Shown: positions 16,437-57,719 of the stretch, piece by piece
How the letters are laid out: the number at the start of each line of letters is the position of its first letter
How positions within the stretch are numbered: position 1 is the first letter of the stretch
DNA from: Eledone cirrhosa
Taxonomy: Eukaryota
Length of the DNA: 64,000 nucleotides
Assembly (NCBI GenBank): GCA_964016885.1
Contig: OZ024743.1
Span: forward strand, 102,858,001 to 102,922,000
Direction: 5' to 3'
Notes under the pieces: model-generated
The model's database searches: none
Told to the model about the DNA's origin: nothing
The model's input: the letters and a program-made list of their open reading frames with translations, nothing else
Program-made: the position numbers and the translations under genes

Positions 16437-18575
16437 CATCATCATCGTCATCATCATCATTTTACGTCCGCTTTTCCCTGCTTGCAAGGGTTGGACAGGT
16501 CTTATTCAGCACAGCATTTCTCCACTTGTCACGGTCCTTCGTCATCTCCTCGGTGAGTTTCAGTGATCTGAGATATGCTCTCACCACCTCCGCCCATGTT
16601 TTACGTGGTATACCTCTACTGCGTCTTCCTTCTACTGGGATTTCTTGAGACTTCTTTACACAGCGGTCATCCTCCATGCACATCACATGTCCATACCATC
16701 TCAGCCTTCTCTCCTGCACACCACAACTTATCCCTCTTATACCCAGATTCTTTCTCAACTCGTCTATGCTTGGTCATTCATGCACATTGACATTGCACAT
16801 CCAACAGAGCTTGCTTGCTTCATTTCTCTCCAGCCGTCACATATCCTCTGTAGTTGCTGCCTATGTCTCATTACCATGCAGCATCGCACATCTCACACAG
16901 GCATCATATAACTGTTCTTTCGTACGCAGGGAGAAATCCTTCTTTGTCAACAAAGGAAGCAGCTCCCTAAACTTCTTCCAACCTGTACTTATTCTAGATA
17001 CTATGGCCTTGGAACACCCCCCTCCCATGCTAATCTGTTCACCTAGGAACCGGAAGCTATCAACCACTTCTATAGAACCCACCAGCATTGGAAAAATGTG
17101 TCTGTCACTGCGATTAATACTGCCAACTTTCCCTGTATATCTACTGCATATGTAGTTTTCCCGACCTGTTAGTTTGCCTGCTATCCCACTACATCCCACA
17201 AGATCTGCATTGCGTACATTTTATGGAATTTATGCCAGTCCCTTTCCTACATATCGAACATGGTCATTTCCCTGATGGAATCGGAGTATTGTCCGCTCTT
17301 CTACTTATCAACACTTTTGCCTTATCTATATTCACTCTCAGTCCTCTTGCTTCCAACTGCTGTTTCCATAGCCAGAATTTATTCTCTAGCTCCTCTACTA
17401 ATTCTGCTATAAGAGCCAGATCATCAGCATATAGAAGTTCCCATGGGCATCCAATCTTAAACTCCTCTGTTATGGCTTGGAGGACTATAATGAACAAGAT
17501 GGGCTGAGGACCGAACCCTGATGTACACCTACTTGTATCTGGAATTCCCCACTAAACTCCATACCTACTCTCACTTTACTGACAGCACCCCTGTACATAG
17601 CTTGCACTGCCCTCACAAGCCATTCCTCTACACCTAGTTTCCTTAGAAACCACCAGATGACAGATCGGGGTATCCTATCAAAGGCCTTCTCTAGGTCAAC
17701 AAAAGCTAAGTATAGTGGCTTATTATTCTCTAAGAACTTCTCTTGTAGTTGCCTCACTAAGAAGAGAGCATCTGTTGTACTTTTCCGAGGCACAAAACCA
17801 AACTGCATCTCATCTAATTTGACACTTTCTCTAATCAGTTGCACTAATATTCTCTCTGCCACTTTCATAACATGATCCATCAGCTTTATGCCCCTATAAT
17901 TGCTCCTCTCTAGAGCATCCCCTTTACCTTTGTAGCAATTTATGAGAATACTGCTGCAGCAGTCTTTGGGTATGACACCGCCATATATAGCCTGATTGAT
18001 GATGTGTGCAACCGGTTTAATCCCTACTTCACCTGATGCCTTCAGCATCTCAGCAACTATCCCCGACGGTCCAGCAGCCTTACCATTCTTCATTTCTTTA
18101 ATTGCCTCTTGTACCCTATATTCGTCAATCTCAATAGCTGGTCCCTCTGTTAGGTCTACTGGGGATAATTTCTCTCTGTCCTATTCATTCTCCACATTCA
18201 TCAGTCTCTCATAGTGACATTTTCGGGCCTCTTTTTTCTGATCATTCGGGACACTAAGTACACCGGCATCATTCCAGACACACTTTTCTCCAACAACATC
18301 CTGATTTGCACTGACACAGGGCCTTGCAATGCAGAACACTGCACGTCTCTGATCTTCCCGTCGCAGAACATTGGCAAACCTCCTACTCTCAGCCTCCCTG
18401 CGTGCTAAGTACACCTGACTTCTCTCCTAGCGGCTGTGTAATCTTCCCTACTCCTACCATTTTTCCAAGCCTTCCATGCCAGTCTTTTGTCTCTAATGGC
18501 CCTATCTACCGTGCTGTTCCACCACCAGTTCACTCTCTGTCTGGTTGAAGTTCTGCCTCAACCACAAGTTTCTTC
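16437..18575 (-). mobile_element. 5'-truncated RTE-clade LINE (family A), frameshifted RT, (ATG)n tail
   Basis: ORF pieces contain MKNGKAAGPSG, NYRGIKL, QFGF, FVDLEKAFD, GVHQGSVLSP, LLYADDLAL, FRFLG, RLRWYGHV and GRRSRGIPRKTW. A short 3' UTR ends in GGACGTAAA(ATG)n. Confidence 0.95.
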
Positions 18576-20434: not shown

Positions 20435-20511
20435 AAAAATAAACTAGCTGACATGGCAAAGACTAAAAGATTAAACAGGAATTTTTGTGATGTTGTAGCA
20501 AAAGCAAAATG
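20435..20511 (+). CDS. Predicted coding exon of the host gene: (KNKLAD)MAKTKRLNRNFCDVVAKAK(W)
   Basis: Acceptor tttttttgttgtcttttacAG and donor ATG|GTATGT. The frame is open across all 77 nt. ATG at 20453 lies in gacATGG context. The exon ends in phase 2, matching the phase of the exons at 28250 and 56849. Confidence 0.6.
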
Positions 20512-24360: not shown

Positions 24361-24741
24361 CTATGACACTGGTGCCAAGTTGTATTAGCCTTTGCATTTA
24401 CCTTGGACCCCATCACTAGTGTAGTAAGGGGAGACTGGCATGTAAGCGTGACTGCTGATTTTTCACAAAACCACCCTGCCTGGGCTTGTTCCTCAGATGA
24501 GCAAACCCATGGTTACTCATTACTGAAGTGGGCCTTCTTATGTATATATGGATGGATACATGCTCATTATCATCCTCAATTTTTCATCTGCTTTCCATTT
24601 GTACATTCCATTTTTAGCATTGGTCCTATGGCTGGATTCTTTTCCACACCTATGTCAATTTAAAGAGTGTACTTAGTGCATTTTGTCATGGCACCAATAC
24701 TAGAGAGGTTGTTATAAACTTGGTTGGGTTCCATCCTAAAT

Positions 24742-26185
24742 TGTTTGTTCCAATTACAGAGGATTCTCCTTATTAAGCCTCCCAGGTAAAGTCTATGGTA
24801 AGTGTCTGGCAAAGGAGATTGTTGAGTCCAAGCTAGCCGATGAACAGTGCGGTTTTCACTCAAGATGCAGCACAGCTGACCAAATATCCATACTGTGGCA
24901 GGTCCTCGAGAAATCGTGGGAATATTGCCAAGAGGTATATTGTTGTTTTGTCAACCTTGAAAAGGCATGTGATCACATTCCTCCAGGCCTGCTGCAGATA
25001 GTTCTGCAGGAGTATGGGATCAATGGTCAGCTTCTTGCTGCCTTGATGTCTCTATACGAATGCCTGAGCATTTGTGTCCAGATAAATGGAGCTAAATTGA
25101 AACCATTTAATGTGGGAGTTGGACTCCACCAAGTGTGCATACTGCCACCTCTCCTGTTCATTATTTTCATGAACAGGATAGACATGCGCAGCCAGGTTGG
25201 AAGTGGTGTCATGACAGGCAGGTGTAAAATCAGTCGGCTGGAATTTGATCTCCAACTTGCACTTGATAGGTTTGATGTTGAGTGCTGCATGACTGGAATG
25301 AAAATCAGTACTGCGACGACTGAGACACTCATCCTCTCAAGGAAGCCTGTGTAGTTCATTCTTCATGTGAATGGAATTCCACTGAAGCAGGTAGAGAAGT
25401 TCAAGTATTTCGGGGCCATGTTCACGAGTGATGGAAGGTAGGAGGCTGAATTAAGTATAAGAATTGTAGAAGCTGATGTAATAATTGTTTCTACTTTAGG
25501 CACAAGGCCAGCAATTACCCAGTGCATTACTGGTACTTTATTTTATCGACCCCGTAAGAATGAAAGGCAAAGTCAACCTCGGCGGGATTTGAACTCACAT
25601 CGTAAAGGGACGTAACTATGCTGGAAAGCATGGTGTCTCACCCTCTACCGATACTGCCAATCCACCAGAAGCTGATGTAATAATGTACCATCTTCAGCTG
25701 TCAGTAATCAGAAGAAGAGAAGTAGACATGAAACAAAACTCACTATCTTCATTTCAGTGTTTGAACCAGCCCTTACCTATGGTAATGACTGAAAGAATAC
25801 GATCATGAATACAAGCGGCCAAAATGTGTTTCCTCTGAAGGGTCTTTGGAGTAACATTACTCAATAGAGTGCATAACTCAGAGAGTCACTCCAGGTAGAG
25901 CCACTACTTCTCTGAATTGAGAGGTCACAGTTCCGATACTATGGCCATGTGATTAGAAAGTCTCAGGAAAGAATCACTGGACAGATTCTACGGGCAAAAC
26001 CAGCCAGCAGGAGACCCAGGGCTAGACCTCAAGCAATATAGTTGTATAACATCCATAAGCTTGGCTGGTCTCACTTGGGAATCCAGCCGGATCAGTTAGA
26101 GATGGTTGCTTCTGACATGACCTGCTGGAAGGAGTGACTTTGTCCGCACAACTTTCTCAAGAATAAACGGGTGAAGAAGAAGAAG
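24742..26185 (+). mobile_element. Decayed RTE LINE fragment (family B, (GAA)n tail) interrupted by a SINE
   Basis: Motifs include CSNYRGFSLLSLPGKVY, DEQCGF, FVNLEKA, LQEYGINGQLL, VGLHQVCILPPLLFIIFM, VEKFKYFG and YGHVIR. It ends in gaagaagaagaag. Confidence 0.85.
25486..25666 (-). mobile_element. Young Meta-domain SINE with perfect 18-bp target-site duplication
   Basis: TSD agaagctgatgtaataat at 25468-25485 and 25667-25684. Confidence 0.95.
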
Positions 26186-27691: not shown

Positions 27692-28249
27692 TTATAATAA
27701 TAATAATAATAATAATAATAATGTTTAGAATTCTGAAACTAATTATAAGTTCTTTGAATTGAGTTAGATAATTTCATATTTCATGAATATTTTATAAATT
27801 TTTGACTACAGTTAATTCCAATTCTAATGAATATTTGACCTCCATCAGTGTATCAGAATTATTTAGGCAATACTTTGATTTCAATATTTAAATCATTTTC
27901 AGTGTTTTAATGCAAAGATGATTAATTTAGCCTAATGTTAACAATAACCATTGATGTTAACTACACCAGTAAAACAAACTACAAATCAAGCTAGTATTTC
28001 TTCCTAATATGATAACTTCTCATATTATATCTATGGAACAATTTCAAAAACCTTTCTCTGATTAATCTAGAACACTGGCACAGTAATAAAATAATTTAAG
28101 CTAGAATCAATTTCTCTTATTTGTACTTAGACATTCTCGTTCGTATTGAAACTTTGACAGGATCAAACTCCTTTCTACTCAATCAACAAAGTGTTATTAC
28201 AAGCCTATCACCATATGTATTTTGATGTTGCTCCTTTCTGATATTTCAG

Positions 28250-28264
28250 GCGTTCCAGTTCCAG
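28250..28264 (+). CDS. Predicted 15-nt symmetric (phase 2-2) microexon adding RSSSR
   Basis: ttgctcctttctgatatttcAG|GCGTTCCAGTTCCAG|GTAGGT. It joins in frame: TG|G CGT TCC AGT TCC AG|G ATG. Confidence 0.55.
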
Positions 28265-29548
28265 GTAGGTCTTCTTGAAGTCAATTGATTCAGCACAAAT
28301 GCTTGTGTCTTGTGTCTTTTGAGAGATACTGTTACCAAGCATGGCAAACAAATTTTGCTTTTACAAAAACTAACATGTACTAATAAACAAAATATAGCAT
28401 ATTCTTTAAACTGTGGTCATAACAAATTGTGTTCTGATGGGATTTCTAACACCACGAAAAGAAACCCTTTGAAAATCTCATTAAACCATAAGCAGGACCA
28501 AGAAATATGGCAGCAGGGGAGGGAAATGCTATCTTATCTTTTTGATGTTACCCTAATATTCTCCTACCATTCTCTTTTTTTAACTGTTGTTCTATGATTC
28601 ACCTCATATTTCATTGTCAAAATGTTTACCCCAGTTATATTTAACCCTACCTTGTCATTGTTTCTACTATTGTTAACTTCACGCAATCGTTATTCTTATT
28701 ATTATCATTATTTTTGTTATTTATCATTATTTTTTTATTATTATCATAATTATTATTGTTATTATTATCAACATTATTTACAGGTTGATTTATCAAGTTT
28801 ACAATTGCTTTATATTTTTTATAATTTATTTAAGAATGTGGTTGACATTATTTGAATGGCTATTTACCATTGACCTCATAAAACTGTTGACCTTATTCAA
28901 TTATTATCAGCTACAGCTGATCCATTCTTTTTCCCCATTTTGTTTTAAATTTGCATATGCTATGATAAAGTTTTATCAGATCTGTAAGCCTCTATTGCTA
29001 TTTAGTTCAAGTCACCTCAACATTTAAAGTTACATATATATGAATCAAATGATAGCTGGGTTGGCAAGTAAAAGATCAGTGGTCAAATGCTCTGTTGTAC
29101 CCAGTGCAATCTTTCTGTGGCTAAAACATCTAACTGCCTGCAGCTCAGTCCACAAGATGAGGGTATATATATCACTTTATGTAGAGGTGTATAGTAAAAT
29201 TGGCAAGTATTTCTGCAGTTTGTACTACAGTGTTCAGAATCTTCCAGGAATATAACTTTGAGATTCATGGACCAGTCAGTACGATTATATTTAGACTAGT
29301 CATTAATTAGCTTTAAATGCAATTCAATGCTTCATTGTCTTACCTGGCTGATTCAACCATTTCATTATCATATTTGTAATGAAAGACATGGCCTATGGTT
29401 TACAAATCTTTTGGAAAATAATCAAGCATTTGAAAAGATTTAATAACATAACTGACTGCTTCATTAATAAGCTGATGATTGGAACATAACTTAACAAAGG
29501 TTCTTCCATAAATCATGGGGAAAAGATGTTTAGATAAATATAAACACA

Positions 29549-38127: not shown

Positions 38128-39341
38128 CAAGAAAAGTGCATAGGCTCACCAGATACTCTCATGGAATGTAACCAAATTCAGTTTATTTTTCAACATAGTC
38201 CCTCTTGCGGTCCACACATTTCTTCCATTGGTGATGCAGTGCATGAATCCCATTGGTGAAAATTTCATCCTGTTGGTCAAAAAGGTCATCAACAGCAGGT
38301 ATGACATCATCAACACTGTGATACTGGTCCTAAGTGCTTTTTCATGATAGCAAGAGGAGGCCAAATCAGGAGAATAGGGAGAATGAACAACCAGTTCAAA
38401 GCCACAGTCATGCGCAGCAGCCATTGAAGCCAAGAACGTGTGTCCTGAAGCATTGTCCTGCTGAAGGAAGACTCCTGTCATCAGTTGACCTGGAAGTTCG
38501 GTTGTTTTGATAGCCTTTCATAACTGCCTCAGCAAGTTGGTATACTTTTCTTTATTGATGGTTGTGACCCATTTGAAGATAATCAATAAACAATACCTTT
38601 TGCATCCCAAAAAAATGAGGCCACCACCTTCCCTGCAGATGAAACGTCTTTGGCCTTCTTTGGAGCAAATGAGGAGGAGTGTTTCCATTGCATCGATTGT
38701 CTCCTTGTCTCTGGCTCAAAGTGATGAACCCAATACTCATCCGAGGTTAGGAAACGTTCAAGGAAACCAGCTGAATCTGCCTCAATCAATGTCAGATTTT
38801 CCCATGATGTGATCAACTTGGTGCACTTTTGATCAGATGTCAGAAGATGTGGCACCCACTAAGCAGAAAACTCATGCCAAGTTCATTGTGCAGAATATTC
38901 TCAACTTTCTCTCAGGGTATGCTAATAGCATGTCATCCATCCCCATGTGGTGAACCTGATCAATGTTTTCCTCTGTAGTGGCAGTTGCAGAATTCCAGAT
39001 CTTGAGTCATCTTCAAGACTCTCTTCCTCTCATAAGTTCATCTACCCCTTTTTGCACTGTTGATAAAGCTAGAGCCTCATCCCTTAATGTAGCAACCATG
39101 CCATGTCCTTGGGTGCTAAACCCTTCTTCTGCAGGTACTTGATAACACTTTGATGCAAATGTTGTCCATTTGCAAGAAAAGTCACTTCTGGTTACTTCTT
39201 TGAACAGTTAGATGTAAGTTTACCTGCAAGAAAACAATGCAGTAATTAATAAAAAGAGTTGAAATTAATGCATGCAAGATTTCACAGCTCTAACATCACT
39301 TCTTTATAGCCAAATTATGAACTTTTCAGCCCACCCTCATA
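38128..39341 (-). mobile_element. Decayed mariner (Tc1/mariner) DNA transposon
   Basis: Transposase motifs WVPHLL, LTSDEYWV, SAGKVVASFFWD, QQDNA and YSPDLA lie in shifted frames. The right end reads TA-TGAGGGTGGGCTGAAAAGTTCATA on the minus strand, and the left end is partly deleted (gaaaagtgcata). Confidence 0.9.
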
Positions 39342-48762: not shown

Positions 48763-50430
48763 AGTGTAACAGAGATGTGGACAGTGTACAACATAGAGAT
48801 GTGAACAGTGTAGAGTATAGAGAAGTGAGCAGTGTACAACATCACATAGTGAACAGTGTACAGATAGAGAAGTGAGTAGTGTACAACATCACATAGTGAA
48901 CAGTGTACATTGTAGAGAAGTAAGCAGTGTACAACATCACATAGTGGACATTGTATAATATAGAGAAGGAAGCAGTATACAACATCACATAGTGGACAGT
49001 GTATAATATAGAGAAGGAAGCAGTGTACAACATCACATAGTGGACAGTGTATAATATAGAGAAGGAAGCAGTGTACAACATCACATAGTGGACATTGTAT
49101 AATATAGAGAAGGAAGCAGTGTACAACATCACATAGTGGACCGTGTACAGATAGAGAAGGAAGCAGTGTACAACATCACATAGTGGGCAGTGTATATTGT
49201 AGAGAAGGAAGCAGTGTACAACATCACATAGTGGGCAGTGTACAGATAGAGAAGGAAGCAGTGTACAACATCACATAGTGGACAGTGTACAGATAGAGAA
49301 GGAAGCAGTATACAACATCACATAGTGGACAGTGTATAATATAGAGAAGGAAGCAGTGTACAACATCACATAGTGAACAGTGTATATTGTAGAGAAGGAA
49401 GCAGTGTACAACATCACATAGTGAACAGTGTATATTGTAGAGAAGTAAGCTGTGTACAACATCACATAGTGGACAGTGTACAGATAGAGAAGGAAGCAGT
49501 GTACAACATCACATAGTGGACATTGTATAATATAGAGAAGGAAGCAGTGTACAACATCACATAGTGGACAGTGTACAGATAGAGAAGGAAGCAGTGTACA
49601 ACATCACATAGTGAACAGTGTATATTGTAGAGAAGGAAGCAGTGTACAACATCACATAGTGAACAGTGTATATTGTAGAGAAGTAAGCTGTGTACAACAT
49701 CACATAGTGGACAGTGTACAGATAGAGAAAGAAGCAGTGTACAACATCACATAGTGGACATTGTATAATATAGAGAAGGAAGCAGTGTACAACATCACAT
49801 AGTGGACAGTGTACAGATAGAGAAGGAAGCAGTATACAACATCACATAGTGGACAGTGTATAATATAGAGAAGGAAGCAGTGTACAACATCACATAGTGA
49901 ACAGTGTATATTGTAGAGAAGGAAGCAGTGTACAACATCACATAGTGAACAGTGTATATTGTAGAGAAGTAAGCTGTGTACAACATCACATAGTGGACAG
50001 TGTACAGATAGAGAAGGAAGCAGTGTACAACATCACATAGTGGGCAGTGTATATTGTAGAGAAGGAAGCAGTGTACAACATCACATAGTGGACAGTGTAC
50101 AGATAGAGAAGGAAGCAGTATACAACATCACATAGTGGACAGTGTATAATATAGAGAAGGAAGCAGTGTACAACATCACATAGTGAACAGTGTATATTGT
50201 AGAGAAGGAAGCAGTGTACAACATCACATAGTGAACAGTGTATATTGTAGAGAAGTAAGCTGTGTACAACATCACATAGTGGACAGTGTACAGATAGAGA
50301 AGGAAGCAGTGTACAACATCACATAGTGGGCAGTGTATATTGTAGAGAAGGAAGCAGTGTACAACATCACATAGTGGACAGTGTATAATATAGAGAAGAA
50401 AGCAGTGTACATCACATAGTGAACAGTGAT
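48763..50430. repeat. Minisatellite, ~34 copies of a 47/48-bp unit (dimer of two ~24-bp subunits) with higher-order structure
   Basis: Unit agtgtacaacatcacatagtggac + agtgtataatatagagaaggaagc. Identical 195-nt ORFs recur at 49271, 49795 and 50081. Confidence 0.97.
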
Positions 50431-51637: not shown

Positions 51638-52848
51638 ATAAATATGTACATAGTTAATAAATGAAACAAACAAAGCACAGGTGGCAGTTTTTACACAGTT
51701 ATATATATACAAAGTATGCGTGAATTTATAGTACACCCCATGCAAGAAACTAAAGGGAAATACTCACTTCAATCTCTTACCCCAGGACATAGATAATGAT
51801 GCAGCAAGAAATTGTATATAAACCATGAAAGAGGAAATGACGATGATGATGATCATGATGATTGTTAGTTTGTTAGTAATAATAATAAACCATTTAGGGA
51901 ACATAGTGAAATGGAAATAATTAGTGTATCAGAAGAGGGAGGCATCTTTTTATGTTATTTCATTTCTTTCTCATTACAATAAGAAAATCTTTGCTATAAT
52001 TCTTTATTACTTTAGCTGTCCTTTATTGTTCACAAATGTAATGTTCAATATTTGTGGATTTCACATATTTTTCAAAAGGACACAAACCCATGAAATAAGG
52101 ATTCCAAACCAGGAGGATTTCCATCAAAACTTTGTCATAACCAAATTCTGGAAATAATTTCCACAAAAGCAAATGACTGATGATTAATAACTTCTCCTTT
52201 GCTCTTCAACAAATAGGTTTCCTAATACTGTTTCATTTCATTTGTAAGATAGAATAAGCTCAAAAGAGATCAATTCTATCTTACTTTTACTAAATGCTTC
52301 TTAAAGTGCTTGTATTTTTTAATTGAGAGATCAAAAACTCAGTTGTTACCTGATACCTTCTTCGTAGGTGATCTTATATGTCACTGCAAGATTGCAGTTG
52401 TTATAGCAACAAAAGCTACCTTGCTCTTTCAACACTGATTTCTTCTTTTTTCCACTATTATTCTTTTCTCTCCTTCCTTAGCATGCTTCGCAGTATTCTC
52501 AGATACAAATATATAACTGGAATAACATACTTAATATATGCCTATATATTTGCACACATAGCTAATGAATTGATACAGACATCTTAGATTTAATGAAAGC
52601 AATTTATATATACATTTATAAAACACATGCATGTAAATAAATACATATACACACAGATGAGAATAAGTCACCTAGGTAGAGACTCCACAGGTGTTGTAAC
52701 ATAAAGAAATAATTTAATTTCTGAGAATATCAAATTTAAAAGATTTATTGTTCTTCCTTGTCACTACTACCTTCTTCAAGCTTAAGCTAACTATTGCATT
52801 TGACATACACACACAAGCACGTAAATACTCTACATTAATGTCTACATT

Positions 52849-53545: not shown

Positions 53546-55134
53546 AGGGTTGGCACCAGCACTACCGCTTTACTGCACTTTACCACACTTTGTGTGGTAC
53601 CAGTATTACCCCTTTATAAAGTGTACTGGGTGCATATTATCATGGTACCAACATAAGAAGGGTTGTGACACCTTTGTCTAGATTGAAGAGTCCTTCTGAA
53701 AAATGTATCTGAATCTGAATAGGTACACAATATCCCAGCATGGCATGAGGCAACTCCAAAGGTTGGTGGCAACAAGAGCATACAACTGAAAATCATTGCC
53801 TCAAAAAGGACCCTCATGTTTAGTATGTAATCTATCATGGTTCTCTAAAAGCTAATCCCCTACTTTAGCCAAATAAAATAGCTTTAAATAGTTGAGTGTG
53901 TGTGTGTGGGAGGGGGGGGGGGGGTGAATAGAGAATGTATGCATCTGGATATTCCATGCACATGTCTGTGTGTGTTGTGTGTGTGAATGTTTTTTGAACG
54001 GGTGTGCATACATGTGTATGTGTGTGTAAGCTGCTGCTAAAATAACCTAATCAACTAGTTTCATTGATCAAGAATAATTTTAAATACATTAAACACTTTT
54101 ATTTCCTATAAGTACTTAATAAATAAAGATTAATTCACACTTTTATTTTTTTTTATTTTAGAAAATGACAAAATTGTCTCCTGTATGTAATCCTTTCATT
54201 AGAATATTTCTAATGAAATGCACTGCCTATAATTTTCAACTTATTTTGAAAATAATCTAGAATATTAAGGGATTTAGTAATATCAGTAAATTCATTATTA
54301 CTTAGCTGGTATTTGGAATATATCTTAAGGTTTCTTCCACAAAATTATGATGGAAGACTTTATATACAGTTTTACCCTTTTGATACTATATTTCTATAAC
54401 TTTCAACTCATTTTGAAAATTATGAAAAATTTAGAGGGATTTAGTAATATAACTTTCTCATTATTAAGATGTTGTCTAAACATAACTTAGCAAGTACTAT
54501 ACATAAAATTATGATGTAAGGTTTTTTCAGATATAGATATACAGTTTAAAACATATATTTTTGTAAAATATTAACCTGTAATCAAATATAATAATTATAT
54601 ATCAACTGAGAATAAACTTTTTAACTAAGTATCTCAAGATACTGCAAATTGATACATCAGAGAATATGTTAAAGAAATATTAAATGTTTGTCTTGTTTGT
54701 TATATATTTATACATTGGCCTTTGAAGTTTATAACTACAAGCTTGCACACACACACATATATACATATGTATGTATGTATGTATATAGTAATTTCATTTA
54801 ATGCATATGTGCCATGTTACGTGAAATATGTTTGTCTTTTGTGTGCATTCCATCCACATTTCCAGAATATTACTTTTAAATATTTATTTTTTATTATGCA
54901 TTATTTATATTCATTTTTAAGGATTATTGAAAGGTGCTTTCTATCCAAGTGATAACCCATTTAATATTCTATCATTTTCTACAATATGAACTCATAATTA
55001 TCACTATAAATTGTTCTCATTTCAATTCATATCAAATATCTTATTTCACAAAATGGTTTTCAATATTTTCTGTTCTTAATAAATGTACTTTAAATGTATT
55101 ATGCATAAATTATTATTTAAAAAAAAAAAAAAAG

Positions 55135-56066
55135 AAGCCATCAATCGGGCAATGTGATCGGTGGAAACTCCACCTCGGCGTTCTATAGAGGATTAGTGGA
55201 GGGGAAGAGCGACGACGTACTTGGGGAAACTCTAGGCGTCGACGAAAATCAACTAGCCAATCTCTTCGGAAGAACTTTCGGGCCGGGGCCTATGGACAAC
55301 TTCCAGAAATCTCTGGCCTGGCAGTGCTACCGAGGAGCCTTGCCAGTTCGGGATAAACTCTACAGGCATGGAGGTGCCGTCAGCCGGGCATGTCCGAGAT
55401 GCGCGCAGGGCGACGAAACCGTCCTGCACGCACTCGTCCAGTGTCCGAAAATTGCTGACTTGTGGGTTTATGTCGAACACCTGCTGTCGCGTTTAGGACG
55501 GATCCAGCTATCATCTGAGTCTATCGTGAGGATTGCCCCGCCCTCCTCCTTTAGCCGGGAAGGGCAGGCAGTTTTTATCTGTCTGGTGGCCATGGCGAAA
55601 GAGATAGTATGGTGGACACGTTTGAAAGGGCTGAAGACGAGCACTTACCTCTTCGGTGATGCTCTGATTGACTTTTTCAAATTTCATTTGAAAAGGAAAA
55701 TCAGAGTAGAGAAGGAAGTGCTCTCTTCCCAGCATTTTGTTGAAAGATGGGTGAGAGAAGCAAGAATGGCCCGAGTGAATGGGCCGACTCTGAGTATATA
55801 TCTGTAAACTAAAGGTGGAAAACTGGGAGAGGGCACTTGCCTTGGTGGTCAGGGTCATTGTGGCTTTTTACTGGGCTTTCTCCACAAATGTCCCTCCGAA
55901 GTCTCCCCCCTATTGGGGAATTTTTCATTGTTATTTTTTGTTACATCCTCTGTTTTTGTTTTTTACACGCAGAAATGCCCATTTGTACCGTCCTGCATTG
56001 TCCTGCACTGTCCTTAATGTCTACTTTATGTAAACCCTTGTGGTTAATAAAGAAATCATTATTATT

Positions 56067-56657: not shown

Positions 56658-56848
56658 AATATGATATAACATAATTTTTTTCTTTCTTTTCTCTCTTTCA
56701 TTCTCTCTTTTTCCCTTTATTCACTCTTTGATCCGGCTTCAATATTCTGCTGAACTGGATGTGAACCAAAATAAAAACAAACCTTCCTGCTCTACCCTAC
56801 AAAAAAAAACAAAAAAAACAATATGCTGGAATATAAAAAAAAATTCAG
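56658..56848 (+). promoter_or_regulatory. 3' splice site with distant polypyrimidine tract and 189-nt AG-exclusion zone
   Basis: No AG dinucleotide occurs from 56658 to 56846. A ~55-nt pyrimidine tract at ~56675-56729 follows ataac/ataat. The first AG is ttcAG at 56847-56848. Confidence 0.6.
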
Positions 56849-57719
56849 GATGCAAGACTTAAAGGATAACAATTTGATAGACGATTCCAGTACTGCAGCT
56901 CCAGAAATCATTGAAATACCATTACGAGACTTATGCACAAATATTGATCTCGATGCACTTCGCAAACAAAATGAACCTGTTGATGGTGATGATGATTGGC
57001 CTATAACATGGCAAGAAGATTGGTTATTATCTGATCACGATGAAACTGTACCTTTAAATTCTGACAACAGCTCATCACAACCACAAATCTGTCACAGCGA
57101 CTGCTCTCTGTTATTAGATAGCCCTGTGAAAAGGCGTCCTAGTACACCAAGTAAAACTTCCATGGTGGAATCAGAAACTATTAGCATGGGTGAAGTAAAC
57201 TCGGCAATTGTAACTGACGAATGCAACATTGACCTAAACCTTGATGGAGAAGAAGACCAGCAAAGTAGTGACAGGACGTTGGTATGCCAAAGGCAATCAA
57301 GTCCCCGTGTTCGCTTTGCTGATAATATTATCAATGGTCGTTTATCATGCAGTGATTTATCGTGCATGCCAGGGGATTTCCCCAACAATGTCTACGATAA
57401 CAAGTATTGCAAACGGAAGTCGAGCTGGTGCGAGGACCGCAATAACATCCTCGCTTCGGTTGGCTCAAAGAACACTCGAGTTCTGCCAATGAAAAATAAT
57501 AAATTCAAATCTCTCATCTGGAAGCGGCCCTCGTTGCAGGATCAACTTCTGCCCTCAATGCAAGCAGGTTTCTGCGTAGAGAATATAACAAAAGAAGAAT
57601 TATTGGTCATGTGGAAGACATCAGAAATTGAATTGACAAAGCGTTTGGAAAAAGCTTTAAAAGAAAAAGCAAAATTAGAAGAAAAACTTGCAGATTTAGA
57701 GCTTGGTTCCCTTGTTTAA
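56849..57719 (+). CDS. Terminal coding exon of an uncharacterised protein (acidic/Ser-rich, probably disordered, with a C-terminal coiled coil)
   Basis: 298-aa non-repetitive ORF (56823-57719) with no transposon motifs. Heptad-rich end ITKEELLVMWKTSEIELTKRLEKALKEKAKLEEKL. The first 8 ORF codons are A-rich and intron-like, and AATAAA motifs follow the stop. Family not recognised. Confidence 0.8.

What the first reader, a model, noticed from the sequence alone, without database searches (positions are those of the whole stretch)
28215..28345. 15-nt frame-preserving microexon with neural (eMIC/SRRM4-type) signature in a cephalopod gene
Seen: ttgctcctttctgatatttcAG|GCGTTCCAGTTCCAG|GTAGGT, with a strong acceptor and donor only 15 nt apart. 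It is phase 2-2 like the surrounding intron and inserts RSSSR between W and MQDL without a stop. There is a TGC at 28229-28231 in the pyrimidine tract and a GCATG at ~28339. An internal CAG could give a nested 6-nt microexon (TTCCAG), also in frame. Established: bilaterian neural microexons are activated by SRRM3/4 (eMIC domain) via upstream UGC motifs, and Rbfox binds (U)GCAUG. Inference: this is a neuron-specific switch adding an R-x-x-S phosphorylation motif to an uncharacterised protein. Standard annotation would miss it.
Basis: partly seen in the sequence, partly recalled or inferred. Interest (0 to 1): 0.8.

Follow-up and report, generated by a model that had tools for sequence, protein, structure and literature searches.

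The report
Microexon in octopus NMDA receptor tail
A 15-base optional exon adds five amino acids to the inner tail of an octopus GluN3-type NMDA receptor; it is spliced both in and out in octopuses and cuttlefish-like species and is already in automatic annotations, and it likely tunes the receptor in some neurons under a known microexon-splicing factor (untested).

Summary
The microexon is real: window 28250-28264, AG|15 nt|GT, phase 2-2. The host is not an uncharacterised protein but a GluN3-type NMDA receptor subunit (93% identical to O. bimaculoides 'NMDA 3A'). A transcript contig of a related octopus carries all 15 bases between the flanking exons; 6 of 7 informative runs, including this species' only one, show skipping. 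RefSeq already lists +5-aa isoforms (RSSSR) in two octopuses, so 'annotation would miss it' is wrong. Decapodiform assemblies carry RSGSR. Abalone, mussel and limpet models have different inserts at the same junction, and rodent GluN3A-long also inserts just before the last exon. The nested 6-nt exon has no support. This genome encodes an eMIC (SRRM_C) domain, but the TGC (26% of acceptor-like sites) and GCATG (7% of windows) are weak signals, the 3' site lacks several eMIC hallmarks, and neural specificity could not be tested. The insert falls in a mollusc-conserved, predicted helix and adds R-x-x-S; the effect is inferred. Verdict: new member of a known kind (ion-channel microexon), not found in print.

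The parts
20435..20511 (+). Penultimate constitutive coding exon (77 nt, phase 0 to 2), KNKLADMAK...KAK-W; donor TG|GTATGT
   Evidence: tblastn of O. sinensis isoform P0008 residues 906-933; joined to 56849 in transcript contigs
28204..28249 (+). Microexon 3' splice region: 44-nt AG-free zone, candidate branch TTGAT 28221-28225, TGC 28229-28231, pyrimidine run CTCCTTTCT 28231-28239, acceptor CAG
   Evidence: sequence; AG exclusion zone; branch point inferred by eye
28250..28264 (+). 15-nt cassette microexon, phase 2-2; adds RSSSR
   Evidence: inclusion contig in run X1; RefSeq X1 isoforms P0008 and P0009
28265..28345 (+). Donor CAG|GTAGGT, UG/U-rich stretch at about 28300-28322, GCATG 28339-28343 (possible downstream enhancers)
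   Evidence: sequence; function inferred; GCATG occurs in 6.8% of 100-nt windows
56659..56848 (+). Terminal-exon acceptor with a 189-nt AG-free zone, a distant pyrimidine tract and an A-rich proximal part
56849..57719 (+). Terminal coding exon: acidic low-complexity tail and C-terminal helix of the GluN3-type subunit, ending in TAA
   Evidence: helix predicted with pLDDT above 90

Best explanation
A 15-nt cassette microexon in the last intron of the octopus GluN3-type NMDA receptor gene is spliced in as a minor form and adds RSSSR to the cytoplasmic tail; it is likely switched on in a subset of neurons by the eMIC-domain factor Srrm234 and likely changes trafficking or partner binding through a predicted helix and a predicted phosphorylation site. 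Shown: exon, gene identity, both isoforms, conservation across octopods and decapodiforms, and an eMIC gene in the genome. Inferred: neural restriction, eMIC dependence, and the mechanism. In that mechanism five extra residues shift the register of a mollusc-conserved helix (NF-DVV-KAKW|MQ-LK) by about 140 degrees and add basic-flanked serines, as the GluN1 C1 cassette does (recalled).
For: Gene: 93% identity to O. bimaculoides 'NMDA 3A'; best PDB matches are GluN3A, 342 bits, against 238 for the best GluN2B; pore-loop FGHTV aligns with GluN3A FGRTV. Inclusion contig in 1 of 7 informative runs with 15 of 15 bases identical; skip in 6. Isoform pairs differ only by RSSSR (3 octopod pairs) or RSGSR (2 decapodiform pairs). 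SRRM_C match of 29.3 bits, over the cut-off of 27, with the rest of the domain in an in-frame next exon 21 kb on. In flies, eMIC targets are short neural exons enriched in ion channels (PMC8797185, abstract). Length 15, in frame, strong donor, TGC between the candidate branch point and the AG. AlphaFold2 puts the junction inside helix 9-26; pLDDT there is about 80 without the insert and about 60 with it.
Against: No tissue labels: neural specificity is untested, and skipping dominates (6 of 7 runs; 39 against 7 contigs on record for the decapodiform proteins) although the gene itself is presumably neural. This species' one RNA-derived run shows only skipping, at depth about 5. TGC lies at -25..-5 in 283 of 1105 acceptor-like sites. 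It sits upstream of the main pyrimidine run rather than between it and the AG. No CUAAY branch site lies in the 44-nt zone, which is no longer than the constitutive upstream exon's 48 nt. Both AlphaFold2 models keep a helix and are low-confidence overall (mean pLDDT 53-56). The terminal R is forced by the AG|G junction. 15 of 15 identity at about 90% background divergence has a chance of about 0.2.
Confidence: 0.55

Rival explanations
1. The exon is real and regulated, but driven by downstream enhancers (Rbfox at GCAUG, CELF/Elav at the UG/U-rich stretch) or by developmental stage rather than by eMIC.
For: The 3' site looks fairly strong (75% pyrimidine) and lacks the distant tract and CUAAY reported for eMIC exons (PMC8797185 section 10; bioRxiv 2024.09.17.613571 passages). 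GCATG at +75 and a UG-rich run lie downstream.
Against: GCATG is common (6.8% of windows) and lacks the leading U. UGC is found in only 74-79% of SRRM3/4 microexons and is not strictly required, so an imperfect site does not exclude eMIC. An eMIC gene is present.
Confidence: 0.25
2. The exon is a tolerated low-level splice variant with little functional effect: a short in-frame insert in a flexible tail.
For: Minor isoform in the data seen. Only skip forms are on record for scallops, Solemya, Patella and heterobranch snails. Inserts in other molluscs share no sequence with it. The role of rodent GluN3A-long is unknown (PMC3872238 passage).
Against: 4 of 5 residues are kept between octopods and decapodiforms, in an intron full of repeats and retroelement remnants. 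The insert site is the most conserved stretch of the tail.
Confidence: 0.17
3. The exon is used in other coleoids but is silent in this species.
For: The only own-species RNA-derived contig skips it.
Against: Splice sites and the 15 bases are intact and identical to the included form of a relative. One contig at depth about 5 cannot show absence, and contigs drop rare forms.
Confidence: 0.03

Closest known systems
eMIC (Srrm234 / SRRM3/4)-dependent neural microexons (PMC8797185; bioRxiv 2024.09.17.613571)
   Same: Under 28 nt, frame-preserving, strong donor, UGC upstream of the AG, ion-channel host gene, factor encoded in the genome.
   Different: No long AG-free zone, distant tract or CUAAY; flanking introns are long (7.7 and 28.6 kb), unlike the fly targets; neural pattern and dependence untested.
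Rodent GluN3A-long isoform (PMC8257547 passage)
   Same: In-frame insert in the GluN3 cytoplasmic tail at the junction before the last exon; lineage-restricted.
   Different: 20 aa from an alternative acceptor, not a 5-aa cassette; no sequence comparison made; homology of the two introns not tested.
RefSeq isoforms X1/X2 of 'NMDA 3A(-like)' in O. bimaculoides (XP_052828387.1, XP_052828388.1) and O. sinensis (XP_036364235.1, XP_036364236.1)
   Same: The identical RSSSR insert at the identical place: this is the orthologous event.
   Different: Automatic annotation only; no paper on it was found.
Haliotis X1 isoforms (CGERTR or CEERTR in place of W)
   Same: Net +5 aa at the same junction in 3 abalone species.
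   Different: Unrelated sequence; could be an alternative acceptor instead of a cassette (no genomic DNA was available).
GluN1 C1 cassette (recalled, not from a call)
   Same: Optional basic, serine-rich insert after a juxtamembrane helix of an NMDA subunit.
   Different: Much longer, carries an ER-retention motif; different subunit; works-like analogy only.

Membership tests
Cassette microexon | 3-27 nt exon with its own AG and GT | tested here: met
   15 nt, CAG|...CAG|GTAGGT
Cassette microexon | Both included and skipped transcripts exist | tested here: met
   Inclusion in X1 (a relative), skip in 6 runs; isoform pairs. Inclusion not seen in this species' own run.
eMIC/SRRM3/4-dependent neural microexon | UGC between branch point and AG | tested here: inconclusive
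   TGC at -21, downstream of a candidate TTGAT, but upstream of the pyrimidine run; 26% background
eMIC/SRRM3/4-dependent neural microexon | Weak 3' site with long AG-free zone, distant strong tract and CUAAY branch site | tested here: not met
   44-nt zone against 48 nt for the constitutive neighbour; tract adjacent to the AG; no CUAAY. A trend in the literature, not an absolute rule.
eMIC/SRRM3/4-dependent neural microexon | Strong 5' splice site (mammalian type) | tested here: met
   CAG|GTAGGT against ATG|GTATGT upstream, judged by consensus by eye; no MaxEnt score available
eMIC/SRRM3/4-dependent neural microexon | eMIC-domain factor encoded by the organism | tested here: met
   PF15230, 29.3 bits over cut-off 27, split over two exons on C22; missed at E <= 0.001
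eMIC/SRRM3/4-dependent neural microexon | Neural-specific inclusion | not testable with these tools
   Runs are coded, without tissue labels, and are contigs only
eMIC/SRRM3/4-dependent neural microexon | Inclusion depends on eMIC | not testable with these tools
   Needs knockdown or a minigene
GluN3 class of NMDA subunits (host gene) | iGluR domain set and closest similarity to GluN3 | tested here: met
   Pfam PF01094, PF10613, PF00060 on the orthologue; GluN3A 342 bits against GluN2B 238; O. bimaculoides has Grin3 by phylogeny (PMC5225553 table). No tree built here.
GluN3 class of NMDA subunits (host gene) | Gly at the pore N-site | tested here: met
   FGHTV aligned with GluN3A FGRTV; His in place of Arg at the next site
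Nested 6-nt microexon | +2-aa isoform exists | tested here: not met
   0 of 13 junction-spanning coleoid proteins and 0 of 7 contigs; AG-free zone only 7 nt

The most novel reading that the evidence does not exclude
The last intron of GluN3 genes is a recurrent splice-tuning hotspot: coleoids (15-nt microexon), abalones (15 nt), mussel and limpet (48 and 33 nt) and rodents (60 nt) each gained an optional insert at this junction. In coleoids a dedicated SRRM3/4-like paralogue would switch the tail helix of a glycine-type NMDA subunit in chosen neuron types, giving a five-residue handle on cephalopod NMDA signalling.
Probability: 0.2. Interest if true: 0.65.

Novelty: new member of a known kind. 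Interest (0 to 1): 0.4.

Why it matters
Microexon programmes of cephalopod brains are barely described: 'microexon'+'cephalopod' gave 2 papers, 'microexon'+'octopus' 4 and 'Srrm234'+'octopus' 0, and none of those listed concerns this exon. A coleoid-conserved microexon in an NMDA subunit tail is a precise, cheap test of whether eMIC splicing reaches synaptic receptors in molluscs, and of what optional GluN3 tail inserts do, which is unknown even in rodents. It is not a new kind of element, and automatic annotation already holds it.

Tried and rejected
Nested 6-nt exon: no +2-aa isoform. Pfam scan of the two window exons: nothing. A pattern scan of metagenome contigs for the island gave 1 match, in GC-rich unrelated DNA, rejected as chance. 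The PDB holds no relative of the tail, so the rodent insert could not be aligned to this junction. Owenia +3-aa isoform: the difference lies in the ligand-binding domain, not here. An alternative-acceptor origin is rejected for the octopus exon (it lies 28 kb upstream) and is unlikely for decapodiforms and Mytilus, where ORFs running into the last exon read differently (P0031, P0065); it stays open for Haliotis and Lottia. Hydrophobic-moment figures were uninformative. No earlier findings at this place.

Full report
Observation. The sequence is as described: acceptor CAG at 28247-28249, exon 28250-28264, donor GTAGGT, TGC at 28229-28231 and GCATG at 28339-28343. The upstream exon 20435-20511 ends in phase 2 and the terminal exon starts at 56849. 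Inclusion turns KAK-W-MQDL into KAK-W-RSSSR-MQDL. The island is single-copy. From sequence alone the case is modest. A simple filter over the 36,337-nt intron found 11, 8 and 3 small AG-GT candidates at three pyrimidine thresholds, of which 3, 2 and 1 keep the frame without a stop; the reverse strand gave 7, 1, 0 and 2, 1, 0. TGC lies at -25..-5 in 283 of 1105 acceptor-like sites, and GCATG in 6.8% of 2639 windows of 100 nt.

Host gene. The terminal exon has no Pfam match, but a search among longer proteins found O. bimaculoides 'glutamate receptor ionotropic, NMDA 3A' at 93% identity, a decapodiform protein at 67% and Haliotis at 37%. tblastn of the O. sinensis isoform on the window plus 200 kb upstream placed six exons in order on the + strand, at about -155,552, -97,559, -87,213 (with the last membrane helix), -51,636, 20,435 and 56,849; the 5' part of the gene was not fetched. 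The best solved relatives are GluN3A (342 bits), ahead of GluN2B (238), with Gly at the pore N-site. A published phylogeny lists Grin3 for O. bimaculoides (PMC5225553, passages), and NMDA3 is a bilaterian class (PMC6307864, passages). The microexon therefore lies about 95 residues after the last membrane helix, in the cytoplasmic tail.

The exon is used. I laid 8 of 24 listed runs, all contigs, on the terminal acceptor. Seven had one contig running on into the upstream exon. Six join 20511 to 56849 directly, among them X22, which is 99+% alike to the window and so this species. X1, a relative with 35 differences in 355 bases, reads upstream exon, then the first 12 microexon bases, then CAG laid on 56846-56848: all 15 bases, unchanged. 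X24 did not reach the junction. In the protein clusters, 3 of 7 junction-spanning octopod proteins carry RSSSR (RefSeq X1 of O. sinensis and O. bimaculoides, the latter twice from two releases). 2 of 6 decapodiform assembly proteins carry RSGSR (7 against 39 contigs on record; not an inclusion rate). None of these 13 has the +2-aa form. The paired isoforms differ only at this site. So the exon is conserved across octopods and decapodiforms, is the minor form in what I saw, and is already annotated automatically.

Other molluscs. 3 of 7 junction-spanning Haliotis proteins replace W by CGERTR or CEERTR (net +5 aa, three species). 1 of 7 spanning Mytilus proteins (15 of 28 cluster members listed) has a net +16-aa insert. 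One Lottia gene model has +11 aa; these last two rest on single models and may be prediction errors. Scallops, Solemya, Patella, Potamilus and heterobranch snails showed only the skip form. The inserts share no sequence with RSSSR except a last Arg forced by the junction. Rodent GluN3A-long inserts 20 aa through an alternative acceptor at the start of the last exon and is absent in humans (PMC8257547, passages); its role is unknown (PMC3872238, passages). Whether the introns are homologous was not tested.

Regulation. The genome encodes an eMIC domain: PF15230 was missed at E <= 0.001 but scores 29.3 bits, over the cut-off of 27, on contig C22, with model positions 56-67 in an in-frame exon 21 kb further on. 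In flies eMIC activates short neural exons enriched in ion channels (PMC8797185, abstract and section 10). The cis signature here is mixed. For: 15 nt, in frame, strong donor, TGC between a candidate branch site and the AG. Against: the AG-free zone is 44 nt against 48 nt for the constitutive neighbour, the pyrimidine run lies between the TGC and the AG, and there is no CUAAY. UGC is present in 74-79% of human SRRM3/4 microexons and is not strictly needed (bioRxiv 2024.09.17.613571, section 10). Tissue specificity could not be tested. Dominant skipping in a presumably neural gene argues against a pan-neuronal on-switch and fits a neuron-subtype or stage-limited one (inference).

Protein effect. 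The 40 residues around the junction are highly conserved in the 14 mollusc skip forms printed (15 asked for). AlphaFold2 on tail fragments (21-22 aligned sequences) predicts a helix across the junction: residues 9-26 at pLDDT about 80 without the insert, 9-31 at about 60 with it. Most of the tail is disordered, apart from a confident C-terminal helix. These are low-confidence models. The insert would shift the helix register by about 140 degrees or loosen it, and adds R-x-x-S, kept in RSGSR. I infer a change in partner binding or trafficking, by analogy with the GluN1 C1 cassette (recalled); nothing here shows it.

Novelty and verdict. Ten literature searches (seen as listings) showed no paper on this exon; a recent preprint covering O. 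bimaculoides tissue-specific exons has no 'GRIN' or 'NMDA' in its main text, and its supplements were not seen (passages). The element is a new member of a known kind. Probability that the exon is real and alternative in coleoids about 0.97; neural-enriched and eMIC-dependent about 0.55; a measurable effect on the receptor about 0.5. Interest 0.4.

Noticed in passing
window 56659-56848: The terminal-exon acceptor has a 189-nt AG-free zone with a distant pyrimidine tract and an A-rich proximal stretch: a distant-branch-point layout that could slow this intron's removal and favour regulated microexon inclusion.
   Followed up: partly
L022 (G000:C26:19508415, +); L023 (C22:29384840, -); L025 and L026 (C22:28167743 and 28146426, -): Two cwf21-domain loci: an SRRM2-like one whose first 356 codons are uninterrupted on C26, and a second on C22, 1.2 Mb upstream of the eMIC exons on the same strand. 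Octopus may have a separate SRRM3/4-like paralogue, as vertebrates do; linkage into one gene is not shown.
   Followed up: partly
proteins P0005/P0024 against P0027/P0032, residue 680: Decapodiform assemblies have Gly or Glu at residue 680 in the ligand-binding S2 lobe, on both splice forms; compatible with A-to-I recoding or an allele.
   Followed up: no
proteins P0079 and P0172 (Owenia), residues about 682-725: Two annelid GluN3 isoforms differ by what looks like mutually exclusive exons in the S2 lobe; no duplicate of that exon was found in the 264 kb held for the octopus gene.
   Followed up: partly
L029 2501-4084 (-), G000:C3:33731536-33731751: A second gene with a similar terminal exon and C-terminal helix motif, probably a GluN3-like paralogue; not checked for a microexon.
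   Followed up: partly
window 52217-52243: A second in-frame AG-GT candidate (27 nt, with upstream TGC) passed the filter; no isoform seen carries it, likely chance.
   Followed up: partly
window 48782-50428: 48-bp tandem array of about 35 copies in the same intron; retroelement and mariner-like remnants at about 1454-2695, 16465-18426, 24740-25351, 38149-38858 and 55121-55804 (named by recalled resemblance, not scanned).
   Followed up: no
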